DNA of 64,000 nucleotides from Bacteroidota bacterium (GTDB lineage Bacteria; Bacteroidota; Bacteroidia; UKL13-3). Location: positions 21,061 to 85,060 of the forward strand of contig JAIYAT010000010.1 of the NCBI GenBank assembly GCA_027488905.1, read 5' to 3'. Within the stretch, counting starts at the first letter, position 1. Every line of letters begins with the position of its first letter. The notes beneath the pieces were generated by a model. It searched no databases. It was not told the DNA's origin and saw nothing but the letters and a program-made list of their open reading frames with translations. Made by a program: the position numbers and the translations under genes. Positions 32,203 through 47,685 of the stretch are shown here, piece by piece.

Positions 32203-32515
32203 GCGATTTTGCTTTTTTACAATTTCCTAAAATGTCAACTCAAAGGTAAATATTTGAAGCTAAATCCCAATGATTTAAGTAAGGTAAAAAAGGTTTCATA
32301 TAAAAGTTTTAAAGCAGTTTCGGGTTGAACCAAGATGGAATGTAGGGCGTAAGATGTGTTTTTAAAAGCTCCATCGGAGCATCCTGTTTGTAGGAAATGA
32401 TTTGTGTTTAAACAAAGCTCCGTAGGAGCGTTCTGTTGTTGAATAAAATAGATGTGCGTTCCAGATTATTCCAATACCCTTATTGCCGCCAATCGTCTGT
32501 TAGGCACAGTACAGA

Positions 32516-33215: not shown

Positions 33216-33280
33216 TCACTCCACTAATTTACAAAGTTTTAGCTAAAACTCCAACTTTACTGCAATTCTTATTGTATTGT

Positions 33281-33412
33281 GCCTAACGGTTTGAAGATTT
33301 GCGAATTGGCGGATTTGGAACTTCAACCTGTCGACTTGCAACAAAGGTAAGATTGGAAACGGAACGTACAAGTACCTCTTCAACCCGCCATTTTGCAAAT
33401 GTGCTGTTAGGC
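33281..33412. repeat. attC-like recombination site (family C)
   Basis: GCCTAAC at 33281-33287, GTTAGGC at 33406-33412, paired inner boxes TTTGCGAATTGGCGGATT / AACCCGCCATTTTGCAAA, asymmetric 10/6-nt internal loop. Confidence 0.6.
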
Positions 33413-33487
33413 ACAGTTTTTTGTCTTACTTCTTCAATTATTTTTCGTATTATTTATGTCTATTGAAGTTGAAATTAAGTAAAAAAG

Positions 33488-34261: not shown

Positions 34262-34290
34262 AAGATTACTTTGTTTAGATTATTTTTGCA

Positions 34291-34593: not shown

Positions 34594-34618
34594 TAATAGA
34601 GCTATAAGAAGCGAAATA

Positions 34619-34634
34619 TTTTTTTTTTTTTTTT
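34619..34634. repeat. Homopolymeric T16 (A16 on coding strand) tract
   Basis: Read directly from sequence at 34619-34634, just upstream of the DUF2147-like ORF. Confidence 0.9.
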
Positions 34635-34714
34635 AAAAATTACATAAATTAATGATGCAAATTTATACTCCCAAAGAGGATAAACTCATTAACAAAAGAT
34701 AATAAAGGTTATGA

Positions 34715-35260
34715 TTAATATTTTTTCTTTGAAATACGTTGTCTAATCCTACTCAAAGAAACAGGTGTAATGCCTAACACATTAGCAATGTACTTGTCGG
34801 GTACACGGTTAATCATATTTGGGTAATCTTTAAGATATTGTTGGTATCTCTTTTCAGGGGAGAGAAAAACAAAGGAATCAATTCTTTGAAAAGCTTGTTT
34901 CAAAATTTGTCGACCAAAAATCCTGCTGTCCATTTTTTGAAAGTCTAAATTGTCAGAACTTAAATCTTGAAAAGTTTTTACATCTGTAAAGTACACTTTT
35001 GTTTTCTCCAAAGTTTCAAAGGTAAACTTGGAAGGTTCATCAAATAAAATGGTATGAACATTTCCAAATAGTTGCTTCTCGGCAAACAACTGAAAAGTAA
35101 TTTCCTCACCTTTGTCATTTATCAAAAAACTACGAACCAACCCTTTTCGGATATAGAAGACATTATTTGTTTTATCGCCTTCTTTTATTATACTCTCTCC
35201 TTTATCAAATGTTTTTGAGTTAAGATTTCGTAATAATTTAAAAAGGAATTTTATGTTCAT
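34715..35260 (-). CDS. Crp/Fnr-family transcriptional regulator (start at MNIKF)
   Basis: cNMP-binding-like N-domain and C-terminal HTH (YIANVLGITPVSLSRIRQRI). Confidence 0.65.
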   Translation of the reverse strand: MNIKFLFKLLRNLNSKTFDKGESIIKEGDKTNNVFYIRKGLVRSFLINDKGEEITFQLFAEKQLFGNVHTILFDEPSKFTFETLEKTKVYFTDVKTFQDLSSDNLDFQKMDSRIFGRQILKQAFQRIDSFVFLSPEKRYQQYLKDYPNMINRVPDKYIANVLGITPVSLSRIRQRISKKKY

Positions 35261-35289
35261 TCGTTTTTTTGTTTCTGCGGTAAAATTGT

Positions 35290-35422
35290 GCCTAACGTTT
35301 TGCGGCTTGGCGTAGTGGCGGATTTTTAGCACTAATGCTCATACGAAGAACTGCACTTGAACCTACCACAAAACTGTCATACGAGGCACAGAACTCGCCA
35401 TTACGCCAAACCGCTGTTAGCC
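35290..35422. repeat. attC-like recombination site (family C)
   Basis: GCCTAAC 35290-35296, GTTAGCC 35416-35422; stems TTGGCGTAGTGGCG / CGCCATTACGCCAA; 10/6 asymmetric loop. Confidence 0.6.
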
Positions 35423-35431
35423 ACAGTTATT

Positions 35432-36349
35432 CTAATTCAAATTTCGGAATTCTGTCGGACTTAATCCTACTTTTTTCCTAAACAAACTACTGAAGTAGTG
35501 TGAGTGTTCAAAGCCCAAGGAATAGGCAATTTCTTTTATAGAGTCATCACTACCTAGCAATCGGTCTTTGGCAATTTCCAGAAGGTGAAAGTGAATATGT
35601 TCTTGAGTGGTTTTTCCTGTTTCTTTACGAAGTAAATCACTTAAATAATTGGGGGAAAGATTAACTTGATCCGCACATTGTAATGCTGTCGGAAGCCCTT
35701 TTTCGGGAAGGTTAGCTGAATCAAAGTAGTTTTTTAAATAAGTATTGATAGTATCAATCACCGAATTATTTTCATTTGCTCTGGTAATAAATTGTCGGTC
35801 ATAAAAACGATTACAGTGATTCAATAAATATTCTATTGCGGATATCAATACGTTCTTGGTGTGCTTGTCGATGGGTCGATTGAGTTCAGTTTCTATTGTA
35901 TTGATGATTGACGAAAGGCACACTTTTTCATCTTCGGACAAATGCAATGCTTCGTTCGTGGTGTATTTAAAGAATGAGTATTCAGTAATTTTGTTAAACA
36001 GAGGAGTACCATAAATCAAATCGGGATGAAAGTATAGACCCCAATTATACCTACACTCTTCGAAAACAGGATTTTGAATGGTACTTACTTGTTCAGGTAA
36101 AGAAAAGAACAAGCTACCTTCCTGAAAATCTATTTGCTTTCTGCCATATTGCAAGCTTCCTGACTTCAGATGTTTTAATGTAATTACATAAAACGATGAA
36201 GCCACTTGTAAACCAGTGTGTTGAGATTCCTTCTGATGGTTATCTAATTTTGAAAAATCAATGACACTCACCAAAGGATGCTTCGGTGGGGGGATTTGAA
36301 ACATGTTATGCAACATGCTAATACTTTCGATCCTGATAATATCCTTCAT
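35432..36349 (-). CDS. AraC-family transcriptional regulator
   Basis: C-terminal double HTH (YLSDLLRKETGKT...IAYSLGFEHSHYFSSLFRKKVGLSPTEFR). Confidence 0.8.
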   Translation of the reverse strand: MKDIIRIESISMLHNMFQIPPPKHPLVSVIDFSKLDNHQKESQHTGLQVASSFYVITLKHLKSGSLQYGRKQIDFQEGSLFFSLPEQVSTIQNPVFEECRYNWGLYFHPDLIYGTPLFNKITEYSFFKYTTNEALHLSEDEKVCLSSIINTIETELNRPIDKHTKNVLISAIEYLLNHCNRFYDRQFITRANENNSVIDTINTYLKNYFDSANLPEKGLPTALQCADQVNLSPNYLSDLLRKETGKTTQEHIHFHLLEIAKDRLLGSDDSIKEIAYSLGFEHSHYFSSLFRKKVGLSPTEFRNLN

Positions 36350-36352
36350 TGT

Positions 36353-36838
36353 TTATAAGTTGGATAGTTTTTCAAAATAAGTGTCTATTGATTTTTTTGA
36401 AACGCTTTCAATAATCAGGTTTCCAACCGAAAATATGACCAATGAAAACAGTATTCCTTTTACCAATTCTTTATCAATAAAGAGATTTATAAGCAATGAA
36501 ACAATGATTAATATAACAAGCACAATTTGAATTTTAGGGTGGTTATTTACCACCTTTGCCATTCGTTCCTTTTCTTTTTGATGAAACGTTGCCGAACTTT
36601 CCTTGTATAACAAGGTTTGATTTTTTAGTAATTTTTCTTCTGTCATTTTATACCCAATGCCACTAACAGATGAGAATAATCCAAATATAATCAAACCAAT
36701 TTTCAATCCAATTAATACTGCATTCGACCCGGAAAAATGAATCAGGACAGCCAAAAGTAGCATTATAAAACCCAAAGCCAACATATAGTTGGCAATTGTT
36801 TTTTGGGCGTTAATGTATATTTCCAATTGTTCAAGCAT
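36353..36838 (-). CDS. Hypothetical membrane protein
   Basis: Four hydrophobic segments; no family. Confidence 0.4.
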   Translation of the reverse strand: MLEQLEIYINAQKTIANYMLALGFIMLLLAVLIHFSGSNAVLIGLKIGLIIFGLFSSVSGIGYKMTEEKLLKNQTLLYKESSATFHQKEKERMAKVVNNHPKIQIVLVILIIVSLLINLFIDKELVKGILFSLVIFSVGNLIIESVSKKSIDTYFEKLSNL

Positions 36839-36876
36839 AATTTATTTTTTTAATTTTCGAAGACTGCTGTCCATTC

Positions 36877-37707
36877 TTATTTTATGGATGCGCCCGGCAA
36901 AATTTGGTCTATCAAACCATAACCAAACCATCTTTTCATAAACTTACCCAATTTGCCATCAGCGTTAGGTGCGTATCTTCTTTTTGGAGAACCGCTCTTA
37001 GCTGCATGTAATACGGCTTTTGCAATCGTGTCAGACGAAGCTCCATTTTGGCAACCTTTACTCCAATTTTTCCTGAAATTTTTCATCTGCTCCTTATACG
37101 GTCCGGCATTGGGGTGTTTTTCACACTTATCCAAGTAGGGCAAACTGGCAGTGGGAATATCAGTATTGATGTAGCCCGGCTCGATGAGTGACACTTTAAT
37201 ACCAAATTCTTTGACTTCCATACGTAATCCATCCCCGACACCCTGCTGTGCATGCTTGGTAGCGGGATACCATGCCATACCGGGAGAGCCCATATGCCCC
37301 GCAACTGAGGAAGTAATGATGATTCTACCCGATTTTTGTTTTCTCATGTGGGGTAGCACAGCGGTAAATGCCCGGGCATTGCCTAACACATTGACATCAA
37401 ATTGGTATCTGACATCTTCAATGCTTTGCAACTCTACCGGACCCAAGAGGCAAAACCCGGCATTGGCGAAAAGCACATCGATTCTACCATCATCCTTGAT
37501 AATGGTATCAACTACCTTCTGAATGTCTTCATCCTTTGTTACATCACAAGGCATAACTACTGCTCCCAACACTTCTAAATCTTTCATTAAATGAGTTCTT
37601 CTTGCGGTGGCATATACCTTGAAACCGTTTGCTAATAACATCTTTGCAGATGCGTGACCAATACCGGTTGAAGCTCCAGTAATAAATGCGATTTTTTTAT
37701 TTTCCAT
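36877..37707 (-). CDS. SDR-family short-chain dehydrogenase/reductase
   Basis: TGASTGIG Rossmann motif, catalytic YxxxK (YPATKHA). Confidence 0.85.
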   Translation of the reverse strand: MENKKIAFITGASTGIGHASAKMLLANGFKVYATARRTHLMKDLEVLGAVVMPCDVTKDEDIQKVVDTIIKDDGRIDVLFANAGFCLLGPVELQSIEDVRYQFDVNVLGNARAFTAVLPHMRKQKSGRIIITSSVAGHMGSPGMAWYPATKHAQQGVGDGLRMEVKEFGIKVSLIEPGYINTDIPTASLPYLDKCEKHPNAGPYKEQMKNFRKNWSKGCQNGASSDTIAKAVLHAAKSGSPKRRYAPNADGKLGKFMKRWFGYGLIDQILPGASIK

Positions 37708-37850
37708 TATCTTATCTTTTTTGACGTTTAATAATGGTGCAAATTTAAAATGTCAACCTGTATTACAGATTACACAAATCTCGGATAAGCATTCATTTTT
37801 CTTAGATTGTCTAATAGAGTCTGGTTATTGCGGGTCGCTTTCATAATTGT

Positions 37851-38024
37851 GGCTAACGTTTCGGCGCTTGGCGCAGTAAGGGAATGGTTAGCACAAATTT
37901 TGCCAAGGCACTTTACTCCAAAAATAAACTTTTCTGCCTTTTCTTTTTCCTTTTATTCTAATGCCCTTATTTCGCCAAACGCATTTTATAAGCCGTTTTT
38001 CTTTTCCTTAAAACAGGTGTTAAT
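37851..38024. repeat. attC-like site (family A, long variant with conserved ~100-bp internal segment)
   Basis: Left GGCTAACGTTTCGGCGCTTGGCGCAGTAAGG; internal ccaaaaataaacttttctgcc...ttttattc...gcccttatt; right ...gccaaacgc...; four similar copies in the array. Confidence 0.45.
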
Positions 38025-38538
38025 CAATTTTTTTCAAGCTGTCATTTCCATAATAGTTTTTCTCCCACTCAGAAATATCAACTTTTTCAATTTCTTTTTG
38101 CCTTTTTTTTTCATAATCATTTGCATTAATAACCCCAAATAGAATCCAAAATGTCGTCCCGCCTAAAAGCAAAAAAAGTCGTTGATTAAATTTCTTTTGA
38201 TAGTTCTCCTTTTTAAGTTCACTTAATGAAAGACCAACTGTCCACTGTCTTGCTAGAATAAATGGAGCCATAAGAAAAATATAAATCATTTTTTCTATTG
38301 TATAGCTTTCGGTCTCGTTTTGTTCTAATTTTTTTTGATAAGCTAATTCTAATTTTTCAGCTTTCTTTTTCCATCTGTCTAAAGTCTTATCTTGGTCGTA
38401 TCGGGTAACTTTCCGTTTGTTTAGTTCGTCCTTTGCTTGGTCTATTGCGTCTTGTTGCCAATCATCAATTGTTCCATTTGCAATTGCAATTAGTTCTTCA
38501 GTGTCACGCCTTGAAATTGGTGGATTAAACTCTATCAC
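38020..38538 (-). CDS. Hypothetical membrane protein (cassette ORF)
   Basis: ORF with two central TM helices. Confidence 0.35.
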   Translation of the reverse strand: MIEFNPPISRRDTEELIAIANGTIDDWQQDAIDQAKDELNKRKVTRYDQDKTLDRWKKKAEKLELAYQKKLEQNETESYTIEKMIYIFLMAPFILARQWTVGLSLSELKKENYQKKFNQRLFLLLGGTTFWILFGVINANDYEKKRQKEIEKVDISEWEKNYYGNDSLKKID

Positions 38539-38570
38539 TATGGTATCTTTTAAAATAGCTTAAAACGTTT

Positions 38571-38692
38571 GCCAGCTACGAGAAGTTGGAGCCTGTCAGC
38601 ACAAATATAGTTGCCCAGAACCAATTTCAATTAACCACAAATGTGTCAGCGTAGCGCTGAACCGCCAATTTGTTGTTGGTGCTGTTTTAGGC
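38571..38692. repeat. attC-like site (family C2; left arm degenerate)
   Basis: Right arm aaccacaaatgtgtcagcgtagcgctgaaccgccaatttg...GTTTTAGGC nearly identical to the 43290 copy. Confidence 0.4.
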
Positions 38693-38725
38693 TGTTATTT
38701 TTCATGAAATCATTTGGTCATGTTA

Positions 38726-39238
38726 CTAAATATAATGTACCGATATTCCTTTTGCACTAGATAATTGTCTTAAAATTGTATAAAGTTTATTTTTCTCAAA
38801 ATCGTTGTGGAGATAGATATTCATTTGGTAAGTTTCATTTTTAGAATCGATTATTGAAATCACATTCTTTCTGCCGCTATTAAAAGCACCTAGAACTATT
38901 AGAGTGGAGTTGTTTTCACCAAAGCAACCATCAAAGTGAAAGATTATTTGTTTTGGTTTTATTGTTTTTTTTATATGTGTTAATGTTTCAATTTCAATTT
39001 CATCACTATAAAGATTAATCTGTCCAGTTTTATGTTTGTCCTGAAAAAAAAATCTTAAGAATTTAAGTAATATTATGATAACGAATGTAAATGGACCTAA
39101 AACATAAAAATATTTTTCAACCAAATTTAAATGAAATGATAATAAAATTAGTCCAATACTAAAAAAGCCGATACTAAAAGACCAAATGTTATACTTTATG
39201 TCCTTAGGATTTACGATGTCAAATGTTGCTTTATACAT
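38726..39238 (-). CDS. Hypothetical membrane protein (cassette ORF)
   Basis: ORF, N-terminal TM helices. Confidence 0.35.
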   Translation of the reverse strand: MYKATFDIVNPKDIKYNIWSFSIGFFSIGLILLSFHLNLVEKYFYVLGPFTFVIIILLKFLRFFFQDKHKTGQINLYSDEIEIETLTHIKKTIKPKQIIFHFDGCFGENNSTLIVLGAFNSGRKNVISIIDSKNETYQMNIYLHNDFEKNKLYTILRQLSSAKGISVHYI

Positions 39239-39242
39239 AATA

Positions 39243-39388
39243 GCCTATAACGTTTATACGCTTGGCGCAGTAAAGGAATCGTTGGCTCTTTTTCTCCTCA
39301 ATATGTTACTCCAAAAATAAACTTTTCTGCCGTTTCTTTTCCCTTAAAATCCTCAAGCCGTTATTGCATCCAAACGCGTGTTAGCGGC
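39243..39388. repeat. attC-like site (family A)
   Basis: GCCTATAACgtttatacgcTTGGCGCAGTAAAGG ... CCAAACGCGTGTTAGCGGC; arms pair with 10/6 loop. Confidence 0.5.
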
Positions 39389-39407
39389 TGCTCCTTTTGC
39401 TCAGTGG

Positions 39408-40079
39408 CTATAAGTACATTTTCAAATTTTCGTTTTCATCTGTCTGATACAATTCATTAAGTAATACTTTCATCTGGTCATTATTTTTGAAGTTGTTGCC
39501 TGTAAATTGTTTAATTCTATTTATTACTTCTTCTGAATCCCATGATGCAATATTACTAGCAAATCTTACTACCATCCCATTGCAGCGCATATCAATTGTT
39601 CCACCCTCGGTGACGTATTGAAGTTGTTGTTCTGTAACCCCCAAACCTGTAATGTCAACAGTTCCGTTATCTAAGGGGTGTTTTGTGTAATTATTTTGAC
39701 TGGCAATTTCTAAACTCGAGACTTCGGATATTGAGAATGATTTTGTCTTAATTGATCCAAATTGTTTGTTAATAATAGTAATCTGGTCTTTCGATATTTC
39801 AAGTGATTCCCTATTCAATACTTTCTTTAGATATTCTCTACCAGCAAGTACATATACCACGCATAATGCAATAATTATTATGGCAGCAATGGGAATGTCT
39901 GCAATTAACCTTATTGTAACACTAGTAAGAAATAGTGCGGTAGCGATTAATAATACTCCTTGGAAAATTAGACCAAACTTTATGATTGGACTTACTGATG
40001 GATAAATCTCTATTTTTAGTTTGTCTTTACTTTCAGTAAACTTTAGGGTTTCTTTCATTTTTGATTTAGTAGTGGGCAT
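39408..40079 (-). CDS. Hypothetical membrane protein (cassette ORF; start at MPTTK, ORF track gives 40139)
   Basis: ORF with two TM helices; trimmed so as not to run into the attC-like site. Confidence 0.35.
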   Translation of the reverse strand: MPTTKSKMKETLKFTESKDKLKIEIYPSVSPIIKFGLIFQGVLLIATALFLTSVTIRLIADIPIAAIIIIALCVVYVLAGREYLKKVLNRESLEISKDQITIINKQFGSIKTKSFSISEVSSLEIASQNNYTKHPLDNGTVDITGLGVTEQQLQYVTEGGTIDMRCNGMVVRFASNIASWDSEEVINRIKQFTGNNFKNNDQMKVLLNELYQTDENENLKMYL

Positions 40080-40111
40080 AAACAATGGTTGCACATGGAG
40101 TTGCAGATATC

Positions 40112-40233
40112 GTTTGACAGCTAATCGCAGATGGCCCAATTGCGGACCATTCTTCGTGATAGCAGCTTATCAAATATAGAAAAATTTCGCCTAAGAACAA
40201 CTAGGGCCATTTGTATTTAGGTGATGTTATGCC
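40112..40233. repeat. attC-like site (family B, left end truncated)
   Basis: ...AGCTAATCGCAGATGGCCCAATTGCGGACC ... GGGCCATTTGTATTTAGGTGATGTTATGCC; near-identical to copy at 41599. Confidence 0.4.
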
Positions 40234-40243
40234 TAGTTAATTT

Positions 40244-40915
40244 TTAAAGAATCATTGGTGCCATATTGAAATTTGTGTCTAATTTTTTATTTCCAATGGA
40301 GTCAAACATTTGGAATTTCCCGTTTAATAATGAACCGCCACCTACTTTATTATTATAATAAGGTTTCTTATACAATTTCCAGTTTTCTATAGTATTAATT
40401 TTCCCATTTTTAAAGTAACTTTTAAGGACACCTGATGGCAACCCCGTATTGTAATTATTCAACCGAATATATGTGCCCTCAAACCAAATATTTCCGTTCT
40501 CATATGGTACTTTTACATAGACACTATCCTCGTATATAATGATACCTTTCAGAGCAAATGCTTTAGTATAGTATGGATGAGTGTTGTTAAAATATTCTGG
40601 AATAACTGACCATTGTATCTTGCCATTTTTAAAAAGAGCTAATGAAACTAATTTGTTCTTTTGTGAGAAATGGAATATTTTGGAAATACTATCTAGCTCA
40701 TTGTCTTTATAAAATACTTCTCTGATTTCATTATTTAAAGAGTCATTTATTTTCCATAATCCTTGTTTTAATCCTTTTTCATCTATAAAGTTAATTTCAG
40801 TCTTTATTTTAATATTACTTATTGAATCGGCAATTGGAATTTGTTGATTTTTAGCGTCCTTTCCTTGGTTAAAACAAGAGGAAATGAATAATATTATTAT
40901 GTAATGAAATTTCAT
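40244..40915 (-). CDS. Lipoprotein with MORN-variant (YwqK-like) repeats
   Basis: Lipobox SSC; repeated ...KNGKI...G.W..Y..NG units. Confidence 0.45.
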   Translation of the reverse strand: MKFHYIIILFISSCFNQGKDAKNQQIPIADSISNIKIKTEINFIDEKGLKQGLWKINDSLNNEIREVFYKDNELDSISKIFHFSQKNKLVSLALFKNGKIQWSVIPEYFNNTHPYYTKAFALKGIIIYEDSVYVKVPYENGNIWFEGTYIRLNNYNTGLPSGVLKSYFKNGKINTIENWKLYKKPYYNNKVGGGSLLNGKFQMFDSIGNKKLDTNFNMAPMIL

Positions 40916-40924
40916 CTTATAAAT

Positions 40925-41080
40925 TGGGCATTACGCTGTTTGTGTTCTTGGCGCAGTAAGGGAATGGTTACCACAAATTCGCTCAAGCACTTTACCCCAA
41001 AAATAAACTTTTCTGCCGTTACTTTTTCCTTTTATTCCAATGCCCTTATTGTGTCAAACGTGTCTTATGTGCTGTTATTT
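40925..41080. repeat. attC-like site (family A)
   Basis: gggcattacgctgtttgtgttcTTGGCGCAGTAAGG ... internal conserved block ... gtcaaacgtgtcttatgtgctgtt. Confidence 0.45.
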
Positions 41081-41578
41081 TTGCATGATTACATTTCTTT
41101 CTAGCTCTTTAAATAATGTCCACATATTTGTGACTTTGTTATAAAAGAACTTAGTTACTCGAACGTCCATTAAGGCTTGAGTTTGAAACAAAAAGTCCGA
41201 ATAAATGTCTTCTCTCCATTGAACAATATCTCCACTAATTATGACTTCTATTGTGTCGGTTTTTAGTACTTTGCGATAAATATTGTAAATGTATCTGCCG
41301 CTGTCCGCATTGTCTCCTTGGCATATGGCTTGTCTTGGTGTCTGATGTGCAATGAACCTAAAATGGTTTTGCCCGACTTTTCCATTTAGTAAAGTGGAAT
41401 CCAAGTCTGTCCGCATAATAATATAGCCATACCTCTTTTGGTCTTGATGGATAGATGAGTCAGAAAAATATTTTCTAATTGTCATATTATAAAGTCTTGA
41501 CAAATCTTTTTCAGTAGGCTTTTGACCAAAAGAAATTGTTGCCAACAAGATTGCTAGAATTAACATAAATTTAGGCAT
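41075..41578 (-). CDS. Hypothetical secreted protein (cassette ORF)
   Basis: Signal peptide MPKFMLILAILLATISFG. Confidence 0.35.
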   Translation of the reverse strand: MPKFMLILAILLATISFGQKPTEKDLSRLYNMTIRKYFSDSSIHQDQKRYGYIIMRTDLDSTLLNGKVGQNHFRFIAHQTPRQAICQGDNADSGRYIYNIYRKVLKTDTIEVIISGDIVQWREDIYSDFLFQTQALMDVRVTKFFYNKVTNMWTLFKELERNVIMQK

Positions 41579-41598
41579 ATTTTGTCGTCATTATAATA

Positions 41599-41732
41599 GC
41601 CACTAACGTTTAATTGCTAACCGCAGATGGCCCAATTGCGGACCATTCTTCATGATAGCAGCTTATCAAATATAGAAAATTATTCATAGCGAACAACCGA
41701 AGGGCCATTTGCGGTTAGGTGTTGTTAGCGGC
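41599..41732. repeat. attC-like site (family B, complete)
   Basis: GCCACTAACgtttaattGCTAACCGCAGATGGCC ... GGCCATTTGCGGTTAGGtgttGTTAGCGGC, clear inverted arms. Confidence 0.5.
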
Positions 41733-41780
41733 TGTTTTTTCTTTATTCCGAAGGTGTGTTGTTGAATGCACACACATAGT

Positions 41781-42368
41781 TTATTCAATGTTTGATAAAT
41801 CTAAATAATCTCCGCTGTCATGCCCTATGGCTACAAATAATTTCTCATTGCTTGTCAAAAAGAGTTTCCTGTTGAGTTTCGTTCTGATAATTTCATCAAA
41901 TGTCAACGAACAATAAGCTAGCGGTAAAATCCAGTCGAGGAATTCATAATTGTCTTTGTCAGTTCTTGCTATGTCTTCAATTTGTTGTAGCAAAGTTGGC
42001 TGAGCATAACTATTCTCTGGAACATAAATTGGGTCTAAAGCCCAATCTAAATCATCCTTTTCATACTTGTCCGCACCTGCTAAATAAATTGTTGGAATTT
42101 CTTTTTCATTATCCTCAAATTTTATAATACCTATCCAAAGCGCAACAACACTGCTTGGAAGCGGCGAGATTGTTACAAGATTTTGAAGCCATTCAAGAAT
42201 ATCTGCTTGTTCTTTGTCAATATCTAAATTTCGCAAGGCAGTCCAGTAAGGTTTAGGATTTGTGCTTTCGTGATTGTCAATAAAACTATTCCAAGCATCT
42301 TTTGCAGTTAGTTTTGCAGCGAAAATCGATGTCAAGCTATCCCAAGATTTGTCATGTTGAAATTCCAT
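41781..42368 (-). CDS. Hypothetical cytoplasmic protein (cassette ORF)
   Basis: ORF only. Confidence 0.35.
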   Translation of the reverse strand: MEFQHDKSWDSLTSIFAAKLTAKDAWNSFIDNHESTNPKPYWTALRNLDIDKEQADILEWLQNLVTISPLPSSVVALWIGIIKFEDNEKEIPTIYLAGADKYEKDDLDWALDPIYVPENSYAQPTLLQQIEDIARTDKDNYEFLDWILPLAYCSLTFDEIIRTKLNRKLFLTSNEKLFVAIGHDSGDYLDLSNIE

Positions 42369-42418
42369 ATCAGTTTTTTTCTGCTATCAGTTTAATGTTT
42401 GCACGATGATCCTATAAT

Positions 42419-42565
42419 AGCCGCCAATGTTTGTGTTCTTGGCGCAGTAAGGGAATGATTAGCACAAATTTCGCTCTTGCGCTTTAAGCCAAAAATAAAC
42501 TTTTCTGCCTTTTCTTTTTCCTTTTATTCTTAAGCCCTTATTGCCGCCAAACGCGTGTCGGCAGT
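42419..42565. repeat. attC-like site (family A)
   Basis: tagccgccaatgtttgtgttcTTGGCGCAGTAAGG ... gccgccaaacgcgtgtcggcag. Confidence 0.45.
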
Positions 42566-42573
42566 AGTGCTTA

Positions 42574-42993
42574 TTAGTCGGGTTTATTATTTTCCCAATA
42601 TTCTTTTGGTGTTACAATTTTGGTCTTTTTATAGGTCGAAAATGTAAAGTCATTTGTATTTCCAGTAATAACAAAGTTGGCTATGCTTTCGTCAGCAAGT
42701 TCCAAAATTTTATTATCATCAACATCAGAAATCAAGTCAAGTTTTATTCTCGGATGAAATTTAGTTGCCCTACTTTCAATATCCACAAGAAGAGATTCTG
42801 CCCGTATAAAAAAGTCTTGAAATTTCGCAAACTTTGGTCGAGCTAACACCTCATAATACTCGGCCATTAATTCTTCAGAAATACATAGTTGGAACTTGTT
42901 CTCCAGAAAAAGGTCGTTAATAATCTGGTTTGGATAACTTTTTTGAATTAAAGCTGAAACAATAACATTCGTGTCAATTACGATTTTTTGCAT
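42574..42993 (-). CDS. vapC: PIN-domain toxin (VapC-like)
   Basis: N-terminal IVIDTNVIVSAL with acidic residues spaced as in PIN domains; 139 aa. Confidence 0.7.
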   Translation of the reverse strand: MQKIVIDTNVIVSALIQKSYPNQIINDLFLENKFQLCISEELMAEYYEVLARPKFAKFQDFFIRAESLLVDIESRATKFHPRIKLDLISDVDDNKILELADESIANFVITGNTNDFTFSTYKKTKIVTPKEYWENNKPD

Positions 42994-43225
42994 TATGTCT
43001 AACAGCTTTTACTTCATTTGTTATTTCGTCAATATCCATATTAGAAAGACCATATTTTTCAGCGAGCTGAATGCATTTGTTTAGATTTTGACGAGTCAAT
43101 TCTTTACTCACAAGGTCGATAAAGTCTGTAAAATTTAGGTTGTCGTTTTTAATGCCGAATTTACTATACTCAAGGTCGGATATTGAAATATTCAAGGTTC
43201 TCATTTTTTTTATATCTATATTCAA
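42974..43225 (-). CDS. Putative antitoxin partner of the PIN toxin
   Basis: 83-aa ORF overlapping the PIN gene start by 20 nt. Confidence 0.45.
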   Translation of the reverse strand: MNIDIKKMRTLNISISDLEYSKFGIKNDNLNFTDFIDLVSKELTRQNLNKCIQLAEKYGLSNMDIDEITNEVKAVRHNAKNRN

Positions 43226-43289
43226 AAATAAGAAAAAATATTTGGGTTTAAGAAGGTCTTATTTTTTTGCAAATTTAAATAGCATTACT

Positions 43290-43419
43290 GCCAACGTTTT
43301 CGGGCTTGGCGAAGGTGGCGATTTTCACCACAAATGTTGATGCGGAAAACCAAACTTTGATTAACCACAAATGTGTCTGCGGAGCACTGAACCGCCACTT
43401 TTGCCAAACCCGTGTTACC
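43290..43419. repeat. attC-like site (family C2)
   Basis: GCCAACgttttcgggcTTGGCGAAGGTGGCG ... CGCCACTTTTGCCAAacccgtGTTACCT; 10/6 loop. Confidence 0.5.
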
Positions 43420-43429
43420 TGCTGCCCTT

Positions 43430-44248
43430 TTAGTTTTCATTCGTTATAAGTGAAAATTTTCCGTTGTTTAGTAAGGTCTTGATGTTGTCTAAAATTTGGT
43501 TGGGTGCGTAATAGTTTGGATGACTTTGAAAAATAGCAGCGTCATTCATTATAGCTTCTATTTCTTGTTTTGTCTGCTCTACTTGTCCCTTGTCGGCAAA
43601 TTTAAGGGAATTGGGTTTGAACCAATCCACTTCAATACAATAGTTGATTTGCTTTGAACAACGACAAGGATTTTTGGGGTCATAAATACCACATTGTTTT
43701 GCCATAAAAGCCCTTATTTGTTGTCGTGCTAAGGAAAGTCTTTTTCTGAACGTTGTTGGTTCAATGTCAAGAATGTATGCCCCTTCATTACTGTCAAACT
43801 CCAAGATTTCTCCAACCAAATATGCCAAACGTAACGTTCTCGACACACAAATTAGCATACTAGTACTACAAGCAATTTTTACTTCTTCTTCCAATAAGTT
43901 TGCATCGGCTTTTTCGTAGGCTGGGTAAGTTGCACCAACTTTAAGATGGTACTCGCCTTCTTCAAAGGTGAGGTTTTCAATTTCGGTTCTTTTCATATTC
44001 AGCAAATAGTTAGTTGCTACCCTATACACCCAGGTGGTAAAGCTACTTTCACCTTTGAATTTGGAAAGGTTGGTCAACACCTTCAAAAGAATTTCTTGTG
44101 TAGCATCTTCCGCATCCATCGGATTCCAGAGGTAACGAACAGATAAATTGTATACATTTCGCTGAATGCACCTTATCAGTATTTCAATGGATTTTTTATC
44201 ACCATTCAGGCAATTCTCTATGAGTTCTATGTAGTTTATTTTTTCCAT
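43430..44248 (-). CDS. Sigma-70-family (ECF-like) sigma factor with ~90-aa Cys-containing C-terminal extension
   Basis: Region 2 (DAEDATQEILLKVLTNLSKFKGESSFTTWVYRVATNYLLN), region 4 HTH, then CGIYDPKNPCRCSKQINYC extension. Confidence 0.65.
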   Translation of the reverse strand: MEKINYIELIENCLNGDKKSIEILIRCIQRNVYNLSVRYLWNPMDAEDATQEILLKVLTNLSKFKGESSFTTWVYRVATNYLLNMKRTEIENLTFEEGEYHLKVGATYPAYEKADANLLEEEVKIACSTSMLICVSRTLRLAYLVGEILEFDSNEGAYILDIEPTTFRKRLSLARQQIRAFMAKQCGIYDPKNPCRCSKQINYCIEVDWFKPNSLKFADKGQVEQTKQEIEAIMNDAAIFQSHPNYYAPNQILDNIKTLLNNGKFSLITNEN

Positions 44249-44278
44249 TCTCCGAACCAGTACTTATTAAATACAAAA

Positions 44279-44629
44279 CTAAGTAGCATAATAGAATTTT
44301 TCTTTCACTATCAAACCATTTTCCCAATGTCTTACTGCTACTTCAGGATAAATAATTTTTTCGCTCTGCTCATTGGTATAATCAAAAAGGACTTCCTGAA
44401 TGCTCAGATTTTCACCATACGCCACGCTTAAAACTTTGAGTTTTAAGTCGGGAAATGCCTCTACAAAACCACCACACTGTTCACGATTGAAGTATTTGCC
44501 CACTCGTGGTTCGGTTTCGTTTTCCTGCATCGTTATATTTTCAGCATAGAAAAGCTCAAATGCTTCCATTGCTTTACCTTGCTCAATCATTGTGTTGAGC
44601 TGCTCATTGTTGTGTTTAAAATTACTCAT
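44279..44629 (-). CDS. NTF2/SnoaL-like small protein
   Basis: 116 aa, composition and C-terminal W..G.I.KE.FYY pattern typical of SnoaL-like folds. Confidence 0.4.
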   Translation of the reverse strand: MSNFKHNNEQLNTMIEQGKAMEAFELFYAENITMQENETEPRVGKYFNREQCGGFVEAFPDLKLKVLSVAYGENLSIQEVLFDYTNEQSEKIIYPEVAVRHWENGLIVKEKFYYAT

Positions 44630-44649
44630 TTTTTAAAATTTCGATGTGA

Positions 44650-45300
44650 TTAATTAAAAGTTTTTCGCAGAAATAAACCAGCATTCGGGTTGAATGTTGT
44701 TTCCAATTCATTGCTAACAGGGTTTCTAAATGTCGGTATTTGCGTGTCGCACCCAATGCCAAACTGAAATCCTTTATGCTCAAGTCCGAGCCTTATTTGC
44801 TGAAAACTGAAGTTGTGTTGCTGGAAATTAAAGTTAGTGCTAAAAGTGAGTTGAGAAAAGAATTTCAGTTTTTTAGTCAATTTAGGGTTATACACTAAAA
44901 GTCCAAACATTTCGTAGTTTGGTTTATTGGTCAATTCAATGGTCGGGAAAACATTAAGGTACAAGTCTCCTTTTTCATTGAAGTATTGCAAAGAAATTGC
45001 TGCAATTGGAACAAAGCCTTGATTTGTCATATACCCCCCCGTTGCAACACCAACGTATTGATTAAAATTAAACGTTGCAACAGAGTAAATAAATGGGTCA
45101 ACTGTTGACCTATCCTTGTAGTCAACAGTAAAATAAGTCAGGTTAAAAAAGCTGACGATACCAAGAGAGTCAATGGGTTTAGAAATAAGGATTTCGTGTT
45201 GAGCCTTTTTGTGTCCGCCAAAGACTTCGCCATAAATGATTTGTGCTTGCAAGGTCTGGCTTAGAAATGCCAAAATGAGAATTAAGAAAATTTGCTTCAT
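44650..45300 (-). CDS. Hypothetical outer-membrane beta-barrel protein (start at MKQIF; ORF track gives 45492)
   Basis: Signal peptide then beta-rich sequence ending in F. Confidence 0.4.
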   Translation of the reverse strand: MKQIFLILILAFLSQTLQAQIIYGEVFGGHKKAQHEILISKPIDSLGIVSFFNLTYFTVDYKDRSTVDPFIYSVATFNFNQYVGVATGGYMTNQGFVPIAAISLQYFNEKGDLYLNVFPTIELTNKPNYEMFGLLVYNPKLTKKLKFFSQLTFSTNFNFQQHNFSFQQIRLGLEHKGFQFGIGCDTQIPTFRNPVSNELETTFNPNAGLFLRKTFN

Positions 45301-45519
45301 ACTTGTCTGAATAAACTGTTTTGTCCATTTGACACAATTCAACCTACAAGTGTGAAGTGAAATTTGAAATTTTTTTGAGGTTTGTCGTTTAGGGTTGCAG
45401 GTAACTCTTTTACTTGCGAAGCAAAATACTAAATTAAGGTTAATTATTGTGAAATTGCCGATGGAAATTATCGTTTTATTGAAAGTTAGCAATTGATTAA
45501 TTTAGGTTCAGAAAGGCTC

Positions 45520-45756
45520 CTAACTCTCCAATACACCCGCACTCACACCCACACTCTTGCTCACACTCACACTCTTGCTTTTCACTCTTTCTCTTCCCTC
45601 TTTCTCTTCCCTCTTTTTCTTCCCTCTTGCTCCATACTGCTTATGTACCCCGCAATCAGTTTGGAGTGTGAGTCTTGAGCAAGAGTTTACGCACTTAATG
45701 AGAGTCTTCCAAAGCACTCTTTCTCCTCCCTCTTGCTCCATACTGCTTAGGTACCC
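45520..45756. repeat. Polypyrimidine (CT / CA-CT) low-complexity tract with ~45-bp internal direct repeat
   Basis: cactcacacccacactcttgctcacactcacactc... ctctttctcttccct units; ctcttgctccatactgctta(t/g)gtacccc occurs twice. Confidence 0.8.
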
Positions 45757-45758
45757 CC

Positions 45759-46022
45759 TTGGATTATCGTGATTACCCCCTTGGATTAACATGGACACCC
45801 GCTTGGATTAACATGGTTACCCCCTTGGATTAACATGGTTACCCCCTTGGATTAACATGGGTACCCGCTTGGATTAACATAGGTACCCGCTTGGATTAAC
45901 ATGGGTACCTGCTTGGATTAACATGGGTACCCCCTTGGATTAACATGGGTACCTGCTTGGATTAACATAGGTACCCGCTTGGAGCATCGTGGGTACCCCC
46001 TTGGTGTAACATATATAAGAAG
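45759..46022. repeat. 22-bp tandem direct repeat, ~12 copies (consensus TTGGATTAACATGGGTACCCSC), iteron-like
   Basis: Units begin at 45759, 45781, 45803 ... 46001 with exact 22-bp phasing; terminal copies degenerate. Confidence 0.9.
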
Positions 46023-46065
46023 GGGAAGCATAAAGTAGATTGTGTAAACTTGTGTAAGATTTGGT

Positions 46066-46100
46066 ACAAAAAAAGTCATCCCCGAAACTGGAGATGACTT
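46066..46100 (-). terminator. Rho-independent terminator for the 46126..46962 gene
   Basis: AAGTCATCCCC / GGAGATGACTT stem (one mismatch) with 6-nt loop, followed on the minus strand by a T7 run. Confidence 0.5.
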
Positions 46101-46125
46101 GCTAAGGGTTGATAACTAAGCTTAT

Positions 46126-46962
46126 TTATAAGCCGATTTTACTGAAAAATTTAAATGGTATTACCTGATGATGTTCTGAACTGGTTCTGCCAAATGTACC
46201 ACGGATATTTGCTTTCACTTGGCGGCCTAATATGATGATTCCGTTTTCTTCATTATAAAATAGTACATCGCGTTTGTGACGCGCATAGGTTAGGGTATTC
46301 TCTAAAGCATTTACCTCATCATTTATCTGCTCCAATTTTAACTGATAGGCTTTTAGGGCTGCTATCTCGAGTTCGCTTTGGTTGGGTTTATAATTGGGTA
46401 TCATTTCTAGAAACTCAATAAACTGCAAAAAGTCTTCTGCTCTTTTTTCTAAGGTAAGATAGGCTCCTATGTGTTTGCTTGGTTTAGACTCACCTGTTTC
46501 AGCGGGTGCCGATTGCTTTTTGTTATAGCCCTTAATTTGTTTAACCACCAAGTATAGGTCATGGTAAAGGCTTTTGTCTACCCCCTGCGATTGCAGCATG
46601 TCTAGTATCCTACTGAGCATCTGGTTTTGGTCCTTGAATAGGTTCAACCTACGCGTAGTGGCATTTAAATAATCCGTTTCTGCATCACTTACCTTTTTAA
46701 TGGCCATTCGACTCTGTGAAAGGAAGTCTTCCAGAGTGGCTAGGCTTAGGTTGGGGTTAGAAGGGTTGTAGGCGGTACCGAATTTCTTCACTACATCAAT
46801 CAAACCAGAGAAATTGTTCATTTTAGCTGTAAAGCTAGATAGATTGTGCTTGTTCATATTTTTATGTATTAATAATGACACTGCAAGTATTGACATAAAA
46901 GGCTGAACAGTAAAGGCTAAATAGTTTGATATTACGCAGATACAAGCTATGTTCTTGCGCAA
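46126..46962 (-). CDS. Hypothetical protein adjacent to the 22-bp repeat array (start uncertain)
   Basis: ORF only; no tyrosine-recombinase or Rep motifs recognised. Confidence 0.4.
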   Translation of the reverse strand: MRKNIACICVISNYLAFTVQPFMSILAVSLLIHKNMNKHNLSSFTAKMNNFSGLIDVVKKFGTAYNPSNPNLSLATLEDFLSQSRMAIKKVSDAETDYLNATTRRLNLFKDQNQMLSRILDMLQSQGVDKSLYHDLYLVVKQIKGYNKKQSAPAETGESKPSKHIGAYLTLEKRAEDFLQFIEFLEMIPNYKPNQSELEIAALKAYQLKLEQINDEVNALENTLTYARHKRDVLFYNEENGIIILGRQVKANIRGTFGRTSSEHHQVIPFKFFSKIGL

Positions 46963-47145
46963 ATTGCATATGCAAGGACAATATCCTAGGCAAACACCCT
47001 TTCATTTGCATATTTCGCAAATAAACCAGCACTTAATTTGCACTACACCCAAATGGAAAGTAATTTTTTTACACCAAATGCAATTTTATTTTGGGCAAAT
47101 TGGGGAGTTGAAGCAGACCATGGTCCATCGACAATGGTCCATGGT

Positions 47146-47685
47146 CTACTCCAACTCCCTTTTCTCAGCTGCCCTTTTTATTTCAAACAAACCTTCCTCA
47201 AAACCAGCCTCAGTTGATTTAATCTTGGAAGGGAGCATAAACCTAAAAATTGGGTTATAACCCACATCGCCAGAATCTACCCAAATTAGGTGCGTTTTAT
47301 TGGCCACAGGCTTAAAGTAAAAAGTAGCTTCGGAATGCATGGTGCCTTCATTGATGCTTAAATCATAATGAATCATTTCATTTTGTTGGCTCTTAGTTAT
47401 TTTAAACCTTCCAATCCCTACTAGGCCACCTCTAAAATACTGGGCCGCCCCTTGGCCGCTCTTCACTTTGCTATAAAAGCTAACCATAGAACTGTCTAGT
47501 TGGGTATTCCACGGACTCCAATCGGCCCAATTGCGAATGCTGTTCATGTAGGCATAAGTTTCATATACAGGCTTGTTAATAACCGTGCTGCGCTCTATAC
47601 GGTAGGTTTTAGGAAAAAGCAAGGAAACCAAAAACACCAATCCAACTAATCCTAAGATGGCCGCAAATATTCCAAATAATTTCAT
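47146..47685 (-). CDS. SRPBCC-superfamily (polyketide-cyclase-like) protein with N-terminal anchor
   Basis: N-terminal TM helix plus SRPBCC-like length and pattern. Confidence 0.5.
   Translation of the reverse strand: MKLFGIFAAILGLVGLVFLVSLLFPKTYRIERSTVINKPVYETYAYMNSIRNWADWSPWNTQLDSSMVSFYSKVKSGQGAAQYFRGGLVGIGRFKITKSQQNEMIHYDLSINEGTMHSEATFYFKPVANKTHLIWVDSGDVGYNPIFRFMLPSKIKSTEAGFEEGLFEIKRAAEKRELE

What the first reader, a model, noticed from the sequence alone, without database searches (positions are those of the whole stretch)
45300..46962. No integrase where the array orientation predicts one; possible degenerate attI region instead
All cassette ORFs are on the minus strand. That puts the integrase-proximal end at the high-coordinate side, near 45.3 kb. 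There the window has a non-coding stretch at 45300-45500 containing GTTTAGGG and GGTAAC motifs but no clean GTTRRRY box. After it come low-complexity and tandem repeats, then a 278-aa ORF at 46126-46962 with no recognisable tyrosine-recombinase motifs. So either this is a CALIN whose integrase was lost, or the integron has an unusual layout with intI elsewhere, or the hypothetical ORF is a very divergent recombinase.
Basis: inference. Interest (0 to 1): 0.6.

Follow-up and report, generated by a model that had tools for sequence, protein, structure and literature searches.

The report
Integrase-less integron end with unknown repeat module
This is the start of a chromosomal gene-cassette array (an integron) that kept its insertion site but lost its integrase gene, and the neighbouring unknown gene plus its 22-base tandem repeats belong to a large, undescribed protein-plus-repeat module that sits next to integron recombination sites in many Bacteroidota.

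Summary
Ten intact attC sites and one truncated one lie on the minus strand (43429 down to 32466). No tyrosine recombinase is encoded anywhere in the 64-kb window.

G|TTACCTGCAACCCT (45405-45391, minus strand) matches the complement of the R'' box of the first attC at 13 of 15 positions. The same core follows the stop codon of a frameshifted integron-type integrase in the closest relative, L005. So the locus is a CALIN, an attC cluster without an integrase, that kept its attI core; CALINs are a known and common state.

The ORF is not a recombinase. Its real start is the ATG at 46857, which gives 243 aa. It is a basic, all-helical, internally duplicated protein with no Pfam, NCBIfam, PHROG, PADLOC, PDB or BFVD match. 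It belongs to a Bacteroidota family of at least 1,500 sequence clusters.

In 71 of 78 related loci the gene is followed by about 12 phased repeats of 21 or 22 bp. In 27 of 53 loci an attC starts 405-575 nt after the stop codon, at the 3' end of unusually large cassettes of 4.4-7.8 kb.

The module's function is unknown. My best guess is a DNA-binding accessory complex next to the recombination site. That module, not the missing integrase, is the interesting part.

The parts
46858..47090 (-). Conserved non-coding leader or promoter region of the module. It contains the palindrome ATTTGCGAAATATGCAAAT and an invariant block TTATGTCAATACTTGCAGT.
   Evidence: Alignment with L005, L004 and L001 gives 81% mean column identity, as high as the coding region. 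Homology with L005 starts at 47090.
46126..46857 (-). Gene for a 243-aa basic, all-alpha protein made of two homologous halves. It is a member of a large uncharacterised Bacteroidota family and is not a recombinase.
   Evidence: Supported. There are 1504 cluster representatives at E<=1e-3. No library gave a family hit. The AlphaFold2 model has pLDDT 88.6. Foldseek found nothing at E<=1e-3 in PDB or BFVD. hhalign of the N-half against the C-half gives probability 96.7%.
46073..46100 (-). Intrinsic terminator hairpin followed by a T-run, directly after the gene.
   Evidence: Found. It is conserved in L001, L004 and L005.
45750..46012 (.). Tandem array of 12 units of 22 bp. The unit is GGTACCCCCTTGGATTAACATG on the + strand and CATGTTAATCCAAGGGGGTACC in the gene's sense.
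   Evidence: TRF result; units listed. L005 has 10.9 copies, L103 about 8, and L004 12.4 copies in inverted orientation.
45533..45749 (.). CT-rich low-complexity DNA. Two 41-nt direct repeats (45611-45651 and 45717-45757) flank one copy of a 60-bp unit that occurs 2.8 times in L005. This is the distal end of the module; homology with L005 ends at about 45615.
   Evidence: (family D3).
45406..45532 (-). Non-coding remnant where the relative L005 has about 0.95 kb of integrase gene. The last 45 nt or so, which include the small palindrome TTGCTTCGCAA, align weakly with the sequence just upstream of the L005 attI core.
   Evidence: No integrase remnant was found by tblastn.
45391..45405 (-). attI-type core and junction with the first cassette: G|TTACCTGCAACCCT.
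   Evidence: It matches the complement of the first attC's R'' at 13 of 15 positions and is unique in the window, with 0.09 matches expected by chance. L005 has the same core after its integrase stop codon.
43281..45404 (-). First cassette, 2.1 kb, with three genes and the first attC. The genes are a 216-aa hypothetical protein with a signal-peptide-like N-terminus (44650-45300), a SnoaL-like protein (44279-44629) and an ECF-type sigma factor (43430-44248). The attC is at 43281-43429.
42414..42572 (-). attC 2. The cassette before it carries a PIN toxin and a VapB-like antitoxin.
41593..41739 (-). attC 3.
40923..41079 (-). attC 4, with degenerate R boxes.
40098..40241 (-). attC 5.
39237..39395 (-). 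attC 6.
38552..38699 (-). attC 7.
37843..38000 (-). attC 8.
35282..35431 (-). attC 9. Its cassette holds a short-chain dehydrogenase (SDR), a 161-aa membrane protein and an AraC-type regulator.
33274..33421 (-). attC 10. Its cassette holds a Crp-type regulator, a 100-aa protein and a fatty-acid hydroxylase.
32466..32510 (-). Truncated eleventh attC with only the R''-L'' half, marking the distal end of the array.
   Evidence: Repeat families D5 and D12 and the sequence itself. Its R'' complements the R' of attC 10, by my reading. The distal flank is conserved in L007.

Best explanation
Shown: window 45.3-47.1 kb is the integrase-proximal boundary of a sedentary chromosomal integron whose integrase gene is gone.

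- The cassette array runs on the minus strand from the attI-type junction G|TTACCTGC at 45405 down to a truncated attC at 32466.
- In the closest relative with an intact layout, the order is: module gene, 22-bp repeats, intI (same orientation as the cassettes), attI core, cassettes. In the window, about 0.95 kb of intI is replaced by about 200 bp of unrelated non-coding DNA.
- The window locus is therefore a CALIN that still carries its attI core.
- The ORF is not the missing recombinase. It encodes a 243-aa basic helical protein built from two homologous halves.
- Together with its terminator and the tandem array, the ORF forms a conserved two-part module. Across Bacteroidota this module lies immediately upstream of an integron recombination site: attC in about half of the sampled loci, and attI or intI in this clade.

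Inferred: the protein binds its own array of about 12 units phased at two helical turns. That would build a nucleoprotein structure beside the recombination site that modulates recombination or expression there. The closest functional analogues are the accessory sequences and proteins next to Xer sites (cer, psi), or iteron and centromere arrays. Its consistent position at the 3' end of unusually large multi-gene cassettes suggests it serves the cassette or platform itself rather than the host.
For: **Array and direction**
- attC sites were found with two covariance models at E values from 1e-15 to 1e-29, with strong covariation.
- R'' boxes complement the R' box of the preceding attC.

**Junction**
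- The match at 45391-45405 is unique in the window, with 0.09 expected by chance.
- L005 has the same core after its integrase stop codon, and its first attC has the R'' box CCAGCAGGTAAC.

**Integrase in relatives, absent here**
- L005 has a split recombinase whose best hit is TIGR02249, at 1.9e-34.
- The window has no recombinase.
- Homology with L005 covers only the module, 47090-45615 at 88% identity.
- The strain-level relatives L007 and L103 share the locus and also lack intI in the sequence held.

**The module**
- The family has 1504 representatives.
- The best autocorrelation lag in the 300 bp after the gene is 21, 42 or 63 in 69 of 78 loci and 22 in 2 more; see also TRF results.
- An attC starts 405-575 nt after the stop codon in 27 of 53 loci.
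- Module-bearing cassettes are 4.4-7.8 kb, against about 0.5-1.5 kb for their neighbours.
- Upstream cargo genes are diverse.
- The family's median pI is 9.25.
- The protein has an internal duplication.
- The AlphaFold2 model is confident.
Against: - No DNA-binding fold or motif was recognised, and the structure searches returned only generic helical bundles.
- Repeat sequences differ sharply between proteins that are 77-81% identical. L001 has a 32-bp unit repeated 3 times plus heptamer runs, and the L004 array is inverted. Strict protein-site co-evolution fits this poorly.
- About half of the sampled loci show no attC after the module, so the link to integrons is not obligatory.
- In L005 the integrase gene lies between the array and the attI core, so the array cannot be a close-range part of attI there.
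- An integrase elsewhere in the genome cannot be excluded.
- The metagenome loci were picked by one peptide pattern and represent one subfamily.
Confidence: 0.7

Rival explanations
1. The integron is functionally complete but split. A working intI lies elsewhere in the genome, outside the 64-kb window, and acts in trans on this attI and array.
For: - Cassette content differs between the window and the 93%-identical relative L007, while the first attC (94% identical) and both flanks are shared. That implies cassette turnover at this locus.
- Cury et al. 2016 report that half of CALINs occur in genomes that encode IntI elsewhere (PMC4889954).
Against: - No recombinase lies within 45 kb on one side of the attI core or 18 kb on the other.
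- The relative with an integrase (L005) has it directly at the attI core, and already frameshifted. The relatives L007 and L103 lack it at the same locus.
- Differences in cassette content can also arise by deletion.
Confidence: 0.25
2. The 243/278-aa ORF is a very divergent site-specific recombinase that replaces IntI.
For: - It sits where an integrase might be expected.
- It has invariant Tyr and Arg residues in each half (Y30, R70, Y156, R196).
- It is linked to attC sites in many genomes.
Against: - It has no similarity to any recombinase profile.
- The confident AlphaFold2 model is a pure helical bundle without a catalytic domain of any known recombinase class.
- In L005, L051 and L078 a genuine tyrosine recombinase is present next to a family member.
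- Half of the loci have no att site.
Confidence: 0.03
3. The gene is an ordinary cargo gene with a host-level function unrelated to integrons. The repeats are a neutral or merely structural by-product, for example slippage-prone 3' DNA or a transcription roadblock. Under this view the position next to the attI core is incidental.
For: - About half of the loci lack a detectable attC.
- The repeat sequence evolves fast and can be inverted or replaced.
- Copy number varies between strains: 12 in the window, about 8 in L103.
Against: - The period is held at 21 bp, or 22 bp in this clade, in 71 of 78 loci even though the sequences are unrelated. Unit number stays near 12.
- The distance to attC is fixed at 405-575 nt.
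- The module always sits at the 3' end of the largest cassettes.
- A third conserved element, the ACA/AGA hairpin, occurs in 34 of 71 loci against 1 of 68 controls.
Confidence: 0.2
4. The module is a replication or partition unit, with an initiator or centromere-binding protein plus iterons. It would let an excised cassette circle or an island persist.
For: - The units are 21-22 bp, phased at two helical turns, in about 12 copies next to the gene for a basic protein. This is the geometry of the R6K and P1 iterons and of the F sopC centromere (my own knowledge).
- Several copies can occur in one array (L012 and L013, L026).
Against: - The family is absent from 72,556 plasmids and 50,697 phage genomes. 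Only 2 of 2.9 million viral contigs carry it.
- The protein has no winged-helix, ribbon-helix-helix or ParB-like fold.
- No partner ATPase is conserved nearby.
Confidence: 0.07
5. The repeats, and in typical family members the hairpin, act as RNA. A structured or repetitive non-coding transcript would be bound or processed by the protein.
For: - The hairpin shows compensatory changes between loci, with different inner-stem sequences around constant ACA/AGA internal loops.
- The array has a constant orientation relative to the gene in most loci.
Against: - An intrinsic terminator lies between the gene and the array in this clade, and inside the first units elsewhere.
- The array is inverted in L004.
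- The array and the hairpin match no Rfam family.
Confidence: 0.12

Closest known systems
CALIN (cluster of attC sites lacking an integron integrase; Cury et al. 2016, PMC4889954)
   Same: There are at least 2 co-oriented attC sites less than 4 kb apart and no integrase nearby. The locus is chromosomal and its cassettes are mostly of unknown function. As in 95% of CALINs, no intI pseudogene is recognisable next to it.
   Different: Here the attI-type core junction is still identifiable. A relative shows exactly where the integrase was, and in the same orientation as the cassettes. The attC sites were called with models built here, not with IntegronFinder's model.
Sedentary chromosomal integrons with the integrase co-oriented with the cassettes (the 'inverted integrase' layout, as in Treponema; my own knowledge)
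   Same: In L005, intI and the cassettes are on the same strand, and the attI core directly follows the 3' end of intI.
   Different: The related recombinases (L051, L078) match the integron-integrase profile TIGR02249 only in two stretches and below its cut-off. They score better against the XerA/integron-integrase model NF040815. The IntI-specific insertion may be missing; this was not verified residue by residue.
Accessory sequences and proteins of Xer recombination sites (cer/psi with PepA, ArgR or ArcA; my own knowledge)
   Same: A stretch of about 200-250 bp on one side of a tyrosine-recombinase core site is thought to be coated by architectural proteins. Here, about 252-264 bp of phased repeats lie upstream of attC or attI.
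   Different: There is no sequence or fold similarity. The protein is encoded by the element itself. Binding is not shown. The array can be more than 1 kb from the core, as in L005.
Iteron and centromere arrays of plasmids (R6K 22-bp iterons, F sopC 12 x 43 bp; my own knowledge)
   Same: They share the unit length, the phasing, the copy number and the adjacency to the gene of a basic protein.
   Different: The family is not found on plasmids or phages. The protein fold is unrelated to Rep, ParB or ParR, and no ATPase partner is present.

Membership tests
Complete integron | An integron integrase gene (a tyrosine recombinase with the IntI-specific domain) adjacent to the array | tested here: not met
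   No recombinase was found in any frame of the 64-kb window. Pfam and NCBIfam scans of neighbouring ORFs were negative.
Complete integron | An array of attC sites with R''-L''...L'-R' imperfect palindromes, co-oriented | tested here: met
   There are 10 sites on the minus strand at E values from 1e-15 to 1e-29. Covariation was seen in 18 of 22 pairs with the window sites and in 19 of 22 pairs with 85 sites.
Complete integron | An attI site at the integrase-proximal end | tested here: inconclusive
   The core junction GTTACCTGC at 45405-45397 (-) fits the cassette-boundary rule and matches the L005 core. attI sites have no general model, and recombination was not tested.
CALIN | At least 2 attC sites on one strand, each less than 4 kb from the next, with no intI in the cluster neighbourhood (IntegronFinder definition, PMC4889954) | tested here: met
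   The largest gap between neighbouring attC sites is 2.4 kb (35431 to 37843). No intI lies within 18 kb or more on either side.
Tyrosine recombinase (for the ORF 46126-46857) | The catalytic domain PF00589 with the R-H-R-Y residues | tested here: not met
   There is no Pfam or NCBIfam hit, and phmmer against related integrases gave E 3.3. The AlphaFold2 model is an all-helical two-repeat bundle.
Iteron-type replication initiator or centromere-binding protein (for the ORF plus repeats) | A winged-helix, ribbon-helix-helix or ParB-type DNA-binding fold, and residence on plasmids or phages | tested here: not met
   Foldseek against PDB and BFVD found nothing at E<=1e-3. tblastn against PLSDB and INPHARED found nothing.
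Iteron-type replication initiator or centromere-binding protein (for the ORF plus repeats) | Direct repeats of 17-22 bp (43 bp in F sopC), phased on the helix, next to the gene | tested here: met
   The window has 12 x 22 bp. A period of 21 or 22 bp was found in 71 of 78 family loci.
Known anti-phage defence systems | A match to a PADLOC model | tested here: not met
   No significant hit for four family members.

The most novel reading that the evidence does not exclude
The helical protein, its roughly 12 phased 21/22-bp repeats and (in typical members) the ACA/AGA hairpin form a previously undescribed cis/trans accessory system of Bacteroidota integrons. This nucleoprotein device would be attached to attC or attI and would promote or control recombination of unusually large multi-gene cassettes. 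Alternatively, it could be the conserved end of a new kind of mobile unit that turns neighbouring genes into cassettes.
Probability: 0.3. Interest if true: 0.85.

Novelty: new variant of a known kind. Interest (0 to 1): 0.55.

Why it matters
The missing integrase on its own is routine. CALINs outnumber complete integrons in genomes, and this one only adds a clear case in which the attI core survives and a relative shows what was deleted.

The part that could matter is the module. It is a very large protein family with no annotation. It is tied to a strictly phased repeat array and is positioned at a fixed distance from attC sites, at the 3' end of cassettes about eight times the usual size.

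Two questions in integron biology are open: how large or multi-gene cassettes are mobilised, and how attC sites become attached to genes. A cassette-encoded accessory nucleoprotein would be a new component of the system, and it can be tested directly by binding and excision assays.

The repeats also break assemblies just after the gene. That is probably why these loci are poorly represented in MAGs.

Tried and rejected
- **Rfam.** A search of the whole window at gathering thresholds found nothing. A search of 45.2-47.25 kb at E<=1 gave only spurious miRNA-type hits on the perfect hairpin at 47103-47159. A search of 11 related loci found only two tRNAs, in L005.
- **tRNA scan of the window.** None found.
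- **Protein and structure libraries for the ORF and family members.** Nothing significant in Pfam, NCBIfam, PHROGs, PADLOC, PDB sequence profiles, Foldseek PDB or BFVD.
- **Whole-family alignment as a locus query.** A six-member subfamily alignment worked, but it biases the 80 metagenome loci towards one subfamily.
- **The repeats as attI accessory integrase-binding repeats.** Rejected. In L005 the integrase gene separates them from the core, and the arrays also occur in loci without any att site.
- **The repeats as Bacteroidetes promoters or as coding heptads.** Rejected. The -33/-7 spacing does not fit, stop codons occur in the frames, and the period is 22 in this clade.
- **A second family copy in L012 (3620-4354).** I first assumed one; the family profile does not match it.
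- **Literature searches.** Searches for an integron-linked tandem-repeat module in Bacteroidota or Flavobacteria found nothing relevant.
Full report
**1. The observation**

- 45301-45530 is non-coding and contains CGTTTAGGGTTGCAGGTAAC on the + strand.
- 45533-45632 is CT-rich low complexity.
- 45750-46012 holds 12.0 head-to-tail copies of a 22-bp unit, GGTACCCCCTTGGATTAACATG, with 86% matches.
- An ORF runs from 46962 to 46126 on the minus strand. Homologues are 239-245 aa and start at MNK(H/N)NLSSF, and the 230 nt upstream are conserved non-coding DNA. The gene is therefore 46857-46126, 243 aa.

**2.

The intergenic repeats between the minus-strand ORFs are imperfect palindromes of about 145 nt with RYYYAAC...GTTRRRY-like ends.

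I built a covariance model from ten of them plus one site from a related locus.
- 80% of cells are paired, against 58% in shuffles and 28-45% in slid controls.
- 18 of 22 pairs show compensatory changes.

A second model, built from 85 sites in 26 sources, gave 86.5% paired cells against 64% in shuffles.

Both models find the same ten sites in the window, at 33274-43429. All are on the minus strand, and none lies between 44 and 47 kb. A truncated eleventh site at 32466-32510, with only the R''-L'' half, ends the array.

In integron arrays the R'' box of a cassette's attC pairs with the start of that same cassette, which is the TTRRRY part of the preceding site. Here R'' complements the R' of the higher-coordinate neighbour at a mean of 5.9 of 9 positions. 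The values are 4.7 for a site's own R' and 3.3 for the lower-coordinate neighbour. The integrase-proximal end is therefore the high-coordinate end.

**3. The attI-type junction**

The complement of the first attC's extended R'' box, GTTACCTGCTGCCCT, occurs with up to 2 mismatches at only one other place in the window. That place is 45391-45405 on the minus strand, GTTACCTGCAACCCT. Chance expectation is 0.09 matches, and no shuffle reached two.

It defines a first cassette of 2.1 kb (45404-43281) with three tightly packed genes: a 216-aa hypothetical protein, a SnoaL-like protein and an ECF sigma factor.

**4. No integrase in the window**

- tblastn with the relative's integrase halves gave nothing better than E = 1.6.
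- hmmsearch and phmmer with filters off, using two full-length related recombinases against all 207 six-frame ORFs of at least 60 aa, gave nothing better than E = 0.034.
- Pfam scans of the ORFs from 25.8 to 50.7 kb show no Phage_integrase domain.

**5. What relatives show**

*L005* is a Bacteroidetes MAG whose protein is 91% identical. It is colinear with the window over 47090-45615 at 88% DNA identity, and only there. After the repeats it carries a tyrosine recombinase split into two ORFs (11426-11875 and 11872-12318). The C-terminal part hits TIGR02249, integron integrase, best at 1.9e-34.
- About 17 nt after its stop codon comes AGTTACCTGCAAG, the same core as in the window.
- Cassettes with five attC sites on the same strand follow.
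- The ancestral order is therefore module, intI, attI, cassettes, all co-oriented. The window lacks the 0.95 kb of intI.

*L007* is 92.7% identical over 10.2 kb of the same chromosomal locus.
- An IS110-family transposase replaces everything from the middle of the module gene onwards.
- An HNH cassette follows, whose attC is 94% identical to the window's first attC.
- The cassette set is partly different, and the distal flank is the same.

*L103* has a 98% identical protein and the same upstream genes. It has the module with about 8 repeat units and then a convergent gene, with no array in the 0.9 kb available.

The locus is thus a strain-variable, sedentary integron site from which the integrase has disappeared. 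This is the CALIN state, which Cury et al. found to be more frequent than complete integrons and usually without a recognisable intI pseudogene.

**6. The ORF is not a recombinase**

- It has no hit in Pfam, NCBIfam, PHROGs, PADLOC or PDB sequence profiles.
- An AlphaFold2 model built from 129 homologues is confident, with pLDDT 88.6 and pTM 0.79. It is purely helical, with a disordered linker at residues 115-133.
- Foldseek finds only generic helical bundles in PDB and BFVD, none at E<=1e-3.
- The two halves are homologous: hhalign gives probability 96.7% and E 3.5e-10. Each half carries a Y-x-P-[SN]-[NE] loop and a conserved Arg.
- The family is basic, with a median pI of 9.25.

**7. The ORF and the repeats are one conserved module**

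A full HMMER scan finds 1504 cluster representatives at E<=1e-3 and 819 at E<=1e-10. Those listed are mostly 230-265 aa. Named members come from Flavobacteriaceae, Chitinophagaceae, Flammeovirgaceae and other Bacteroidota, and nearly all are labelled 'hypothetical'; a few carry JGI's 'chromosome segregation ATPase' name.

*The repeats.* I examined 78 loci with at least 300 bp after the gene.
- The best autocorrelation lag of the downstream 300 bp is 21, 42 or 63 in 69 loci and 22 in two more, which belong to the window's clade.
- TRF and direct inspection show about 11-20 units starting at or near the stop codon, most often about 12.
- Unit sequences differ between loci. Many share the pattern TGCAAAAAGAAA...C. 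The window's clade has an unrelated unit and a period of 22.

*The hairpin.* Typical members also carry a conserved hairpin 239-518 nt after the stop codon: an outer stem, ACA, an inner stem, a loop, the inner stem, AGA, the outer stem. It is present in 34 of 71 loci against 1 of 68 control windows. The window's clade lacks it.

*Distribution.* The family is absent from PLSDB plasmids and INPHARED phages and is nearly absent from IMG/VR.

**8. Link to integrons**

- In 27 of 53 loci with enough downstream sequence, an attC on the same strand starts 405-575 nt after the stop codon.
- Locating each such cassette's 5' boundary by the R''-complement rule, and by the preceding attC, gives cassette lengths of 4.4-7.8 kb. 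Neighbouring cassettes in the same loci are about 0.5-1.5 kb.
- In L051 the boundary lies 120 nt from a divergent recombinase gene, so it is at attI.
- The genes upstream of the module within these cassettes are diverse. Por_Secre_tail proteins account for 9 of 54, and the rest are regulators, transporters, hydrolases and defence genes.
- The module is therefore the constant 3' part of large cassettes with variable cargo. In the window's clade it flanks the integron platform itself.
- The other half of the loci show the gene and array without a detectable attC.

**9. Mechanism**

Shown: the anatomy, its conservation and its position.

Inferred: a basic, pseudo-dimeric protein encoded next to about 250 bp of units phased at two helical turns most simply suggests a protein-coated DNA segment. 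Its placement beside attC or attI suggests an accessory role in recombination or in insulating or expressing the adjacent site, comparable in logic to the cer/psi accessory regions or to iteron and centromere arrays.

Evidence against:
- No DNA-binding fold was recognised.
- The repeats turn over fast.
- The array is inverted in L004 relative to the gene.
- About half of the loci have no attC.

I put roughly 0.3-0.4 on an integron-accessory nucleoprotein role. The remainder is split between an unrelated cargo function, an RNA-level role and a replicon-like role.

**10. Verdict**

They are a member of a large, undescribed protein-plus-repeat module tied to integron recombination sites in Bacteroidota.

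Noticed in passing
L004:10956-11259 versus window 45715-46018: The CT-rich segment plus the 22-bp array is inverted relative to the module gene in L004 (81% identical protein) compared with the window and L005. I found no flanking inverted repeats that would explain an invertible segment.
   Followed up: partly
L016-L095, 239-518 nt after the family gene (for example L021:8016-8080, L059:7983-8042): A conserved hairpin lies between the 21-bp array and the attC. Its consensus is CAAGC-ACA-TTTGCAAAC-loop-GTTTGCAAA-AGA-GCTTG, and the inner stem co-varies between loci. It occurs in 34 of 71 loci against 1 of 68 controls, matches no Rfam family, and is absent from the window's clade.
   Followed up: partly
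L017:4523-4581 versus L019 (same offset): Two otherwise identical loci diverge exactly inside the 5' arm of that hairpin. L017 continues to an attC and L019 does not. This hints that the hairpin may be a recombination breakpoint.
   Followed up: no
L012, L013, L014, L016, L021, L023, L025, L026, L055, L086: Cassettes that end with the module are 4.4-7.8 kb and hold several genes. Neighbouring cassettes in the same arrays are about 0.5-1.5 kb.
   Followed up: partly
L051:220-1332 (-), L078:122-1219 (+), L005:11426-12318: The recombinases next to these attC arrays match the integron-integrase profile TIGR02249 only in two stretches and below its cut-off. They score best with NF040815 (XerA/integron integrase), so the IntI-specific extra domain may be missing in this Bacteroidota group.
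   Followed up: partly
L007:10265-11335 (-): In a 93%-identical relative of the window, an IS110-family transposase replaces the module from codon 75 onwards, together with the repeats and the attI region.
   Followed up: partly
L005:9299-9371 and 9419-9503: Two tRNA genes lie about 270 bp upstream of the module-intI-array unit in L005. That is a different chromosomal context from the window, as expected if the whole unit had moved as an island.
   Followed up: no
L001/L006:10842-12116: In this relative (77% identical protein) the 22-bp array is replaced by a 32-bp unit repeated 3 times. Long heptamer runs follow (AACTTAA x9, AACCCAA x10, TCTCGCC), and the contig ends there.
   Followed up: no
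L002, L003, L020, L098-L102 and many of L016-L095: Contigs very often end 70-500 bp after the family gene, so the repeat array breaks short-read assemblies. The 12-copy count in the window could itself be an assembly estimate.
   Followed up: no
window 47103-47159: A near-perfect 26-nt inverted repeat (88% complementary, 5-nt loop) overlaps the stop codon of the SRPBCC gene and lies at the upstream edge of the module homology. It is probably a terminator and draws spurious miRNA hits in Rfam.
   Followed up: partly
window 42574-43225: The second cassette carries a PIN-domain toxin and a VapB-like antitoxin pair, as is often seen in sedentary integron arrays.
   Followed up: no
window 37843-37971, 39237-39365, 40922-41050, 42414-42542; and 40108-40183, 41604-41679: The attC sites fall into at least two sequence subtypes that recur within the array: repeat family D2 with four copies and D6 with two copies at 92% identity.
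   Followed up: no
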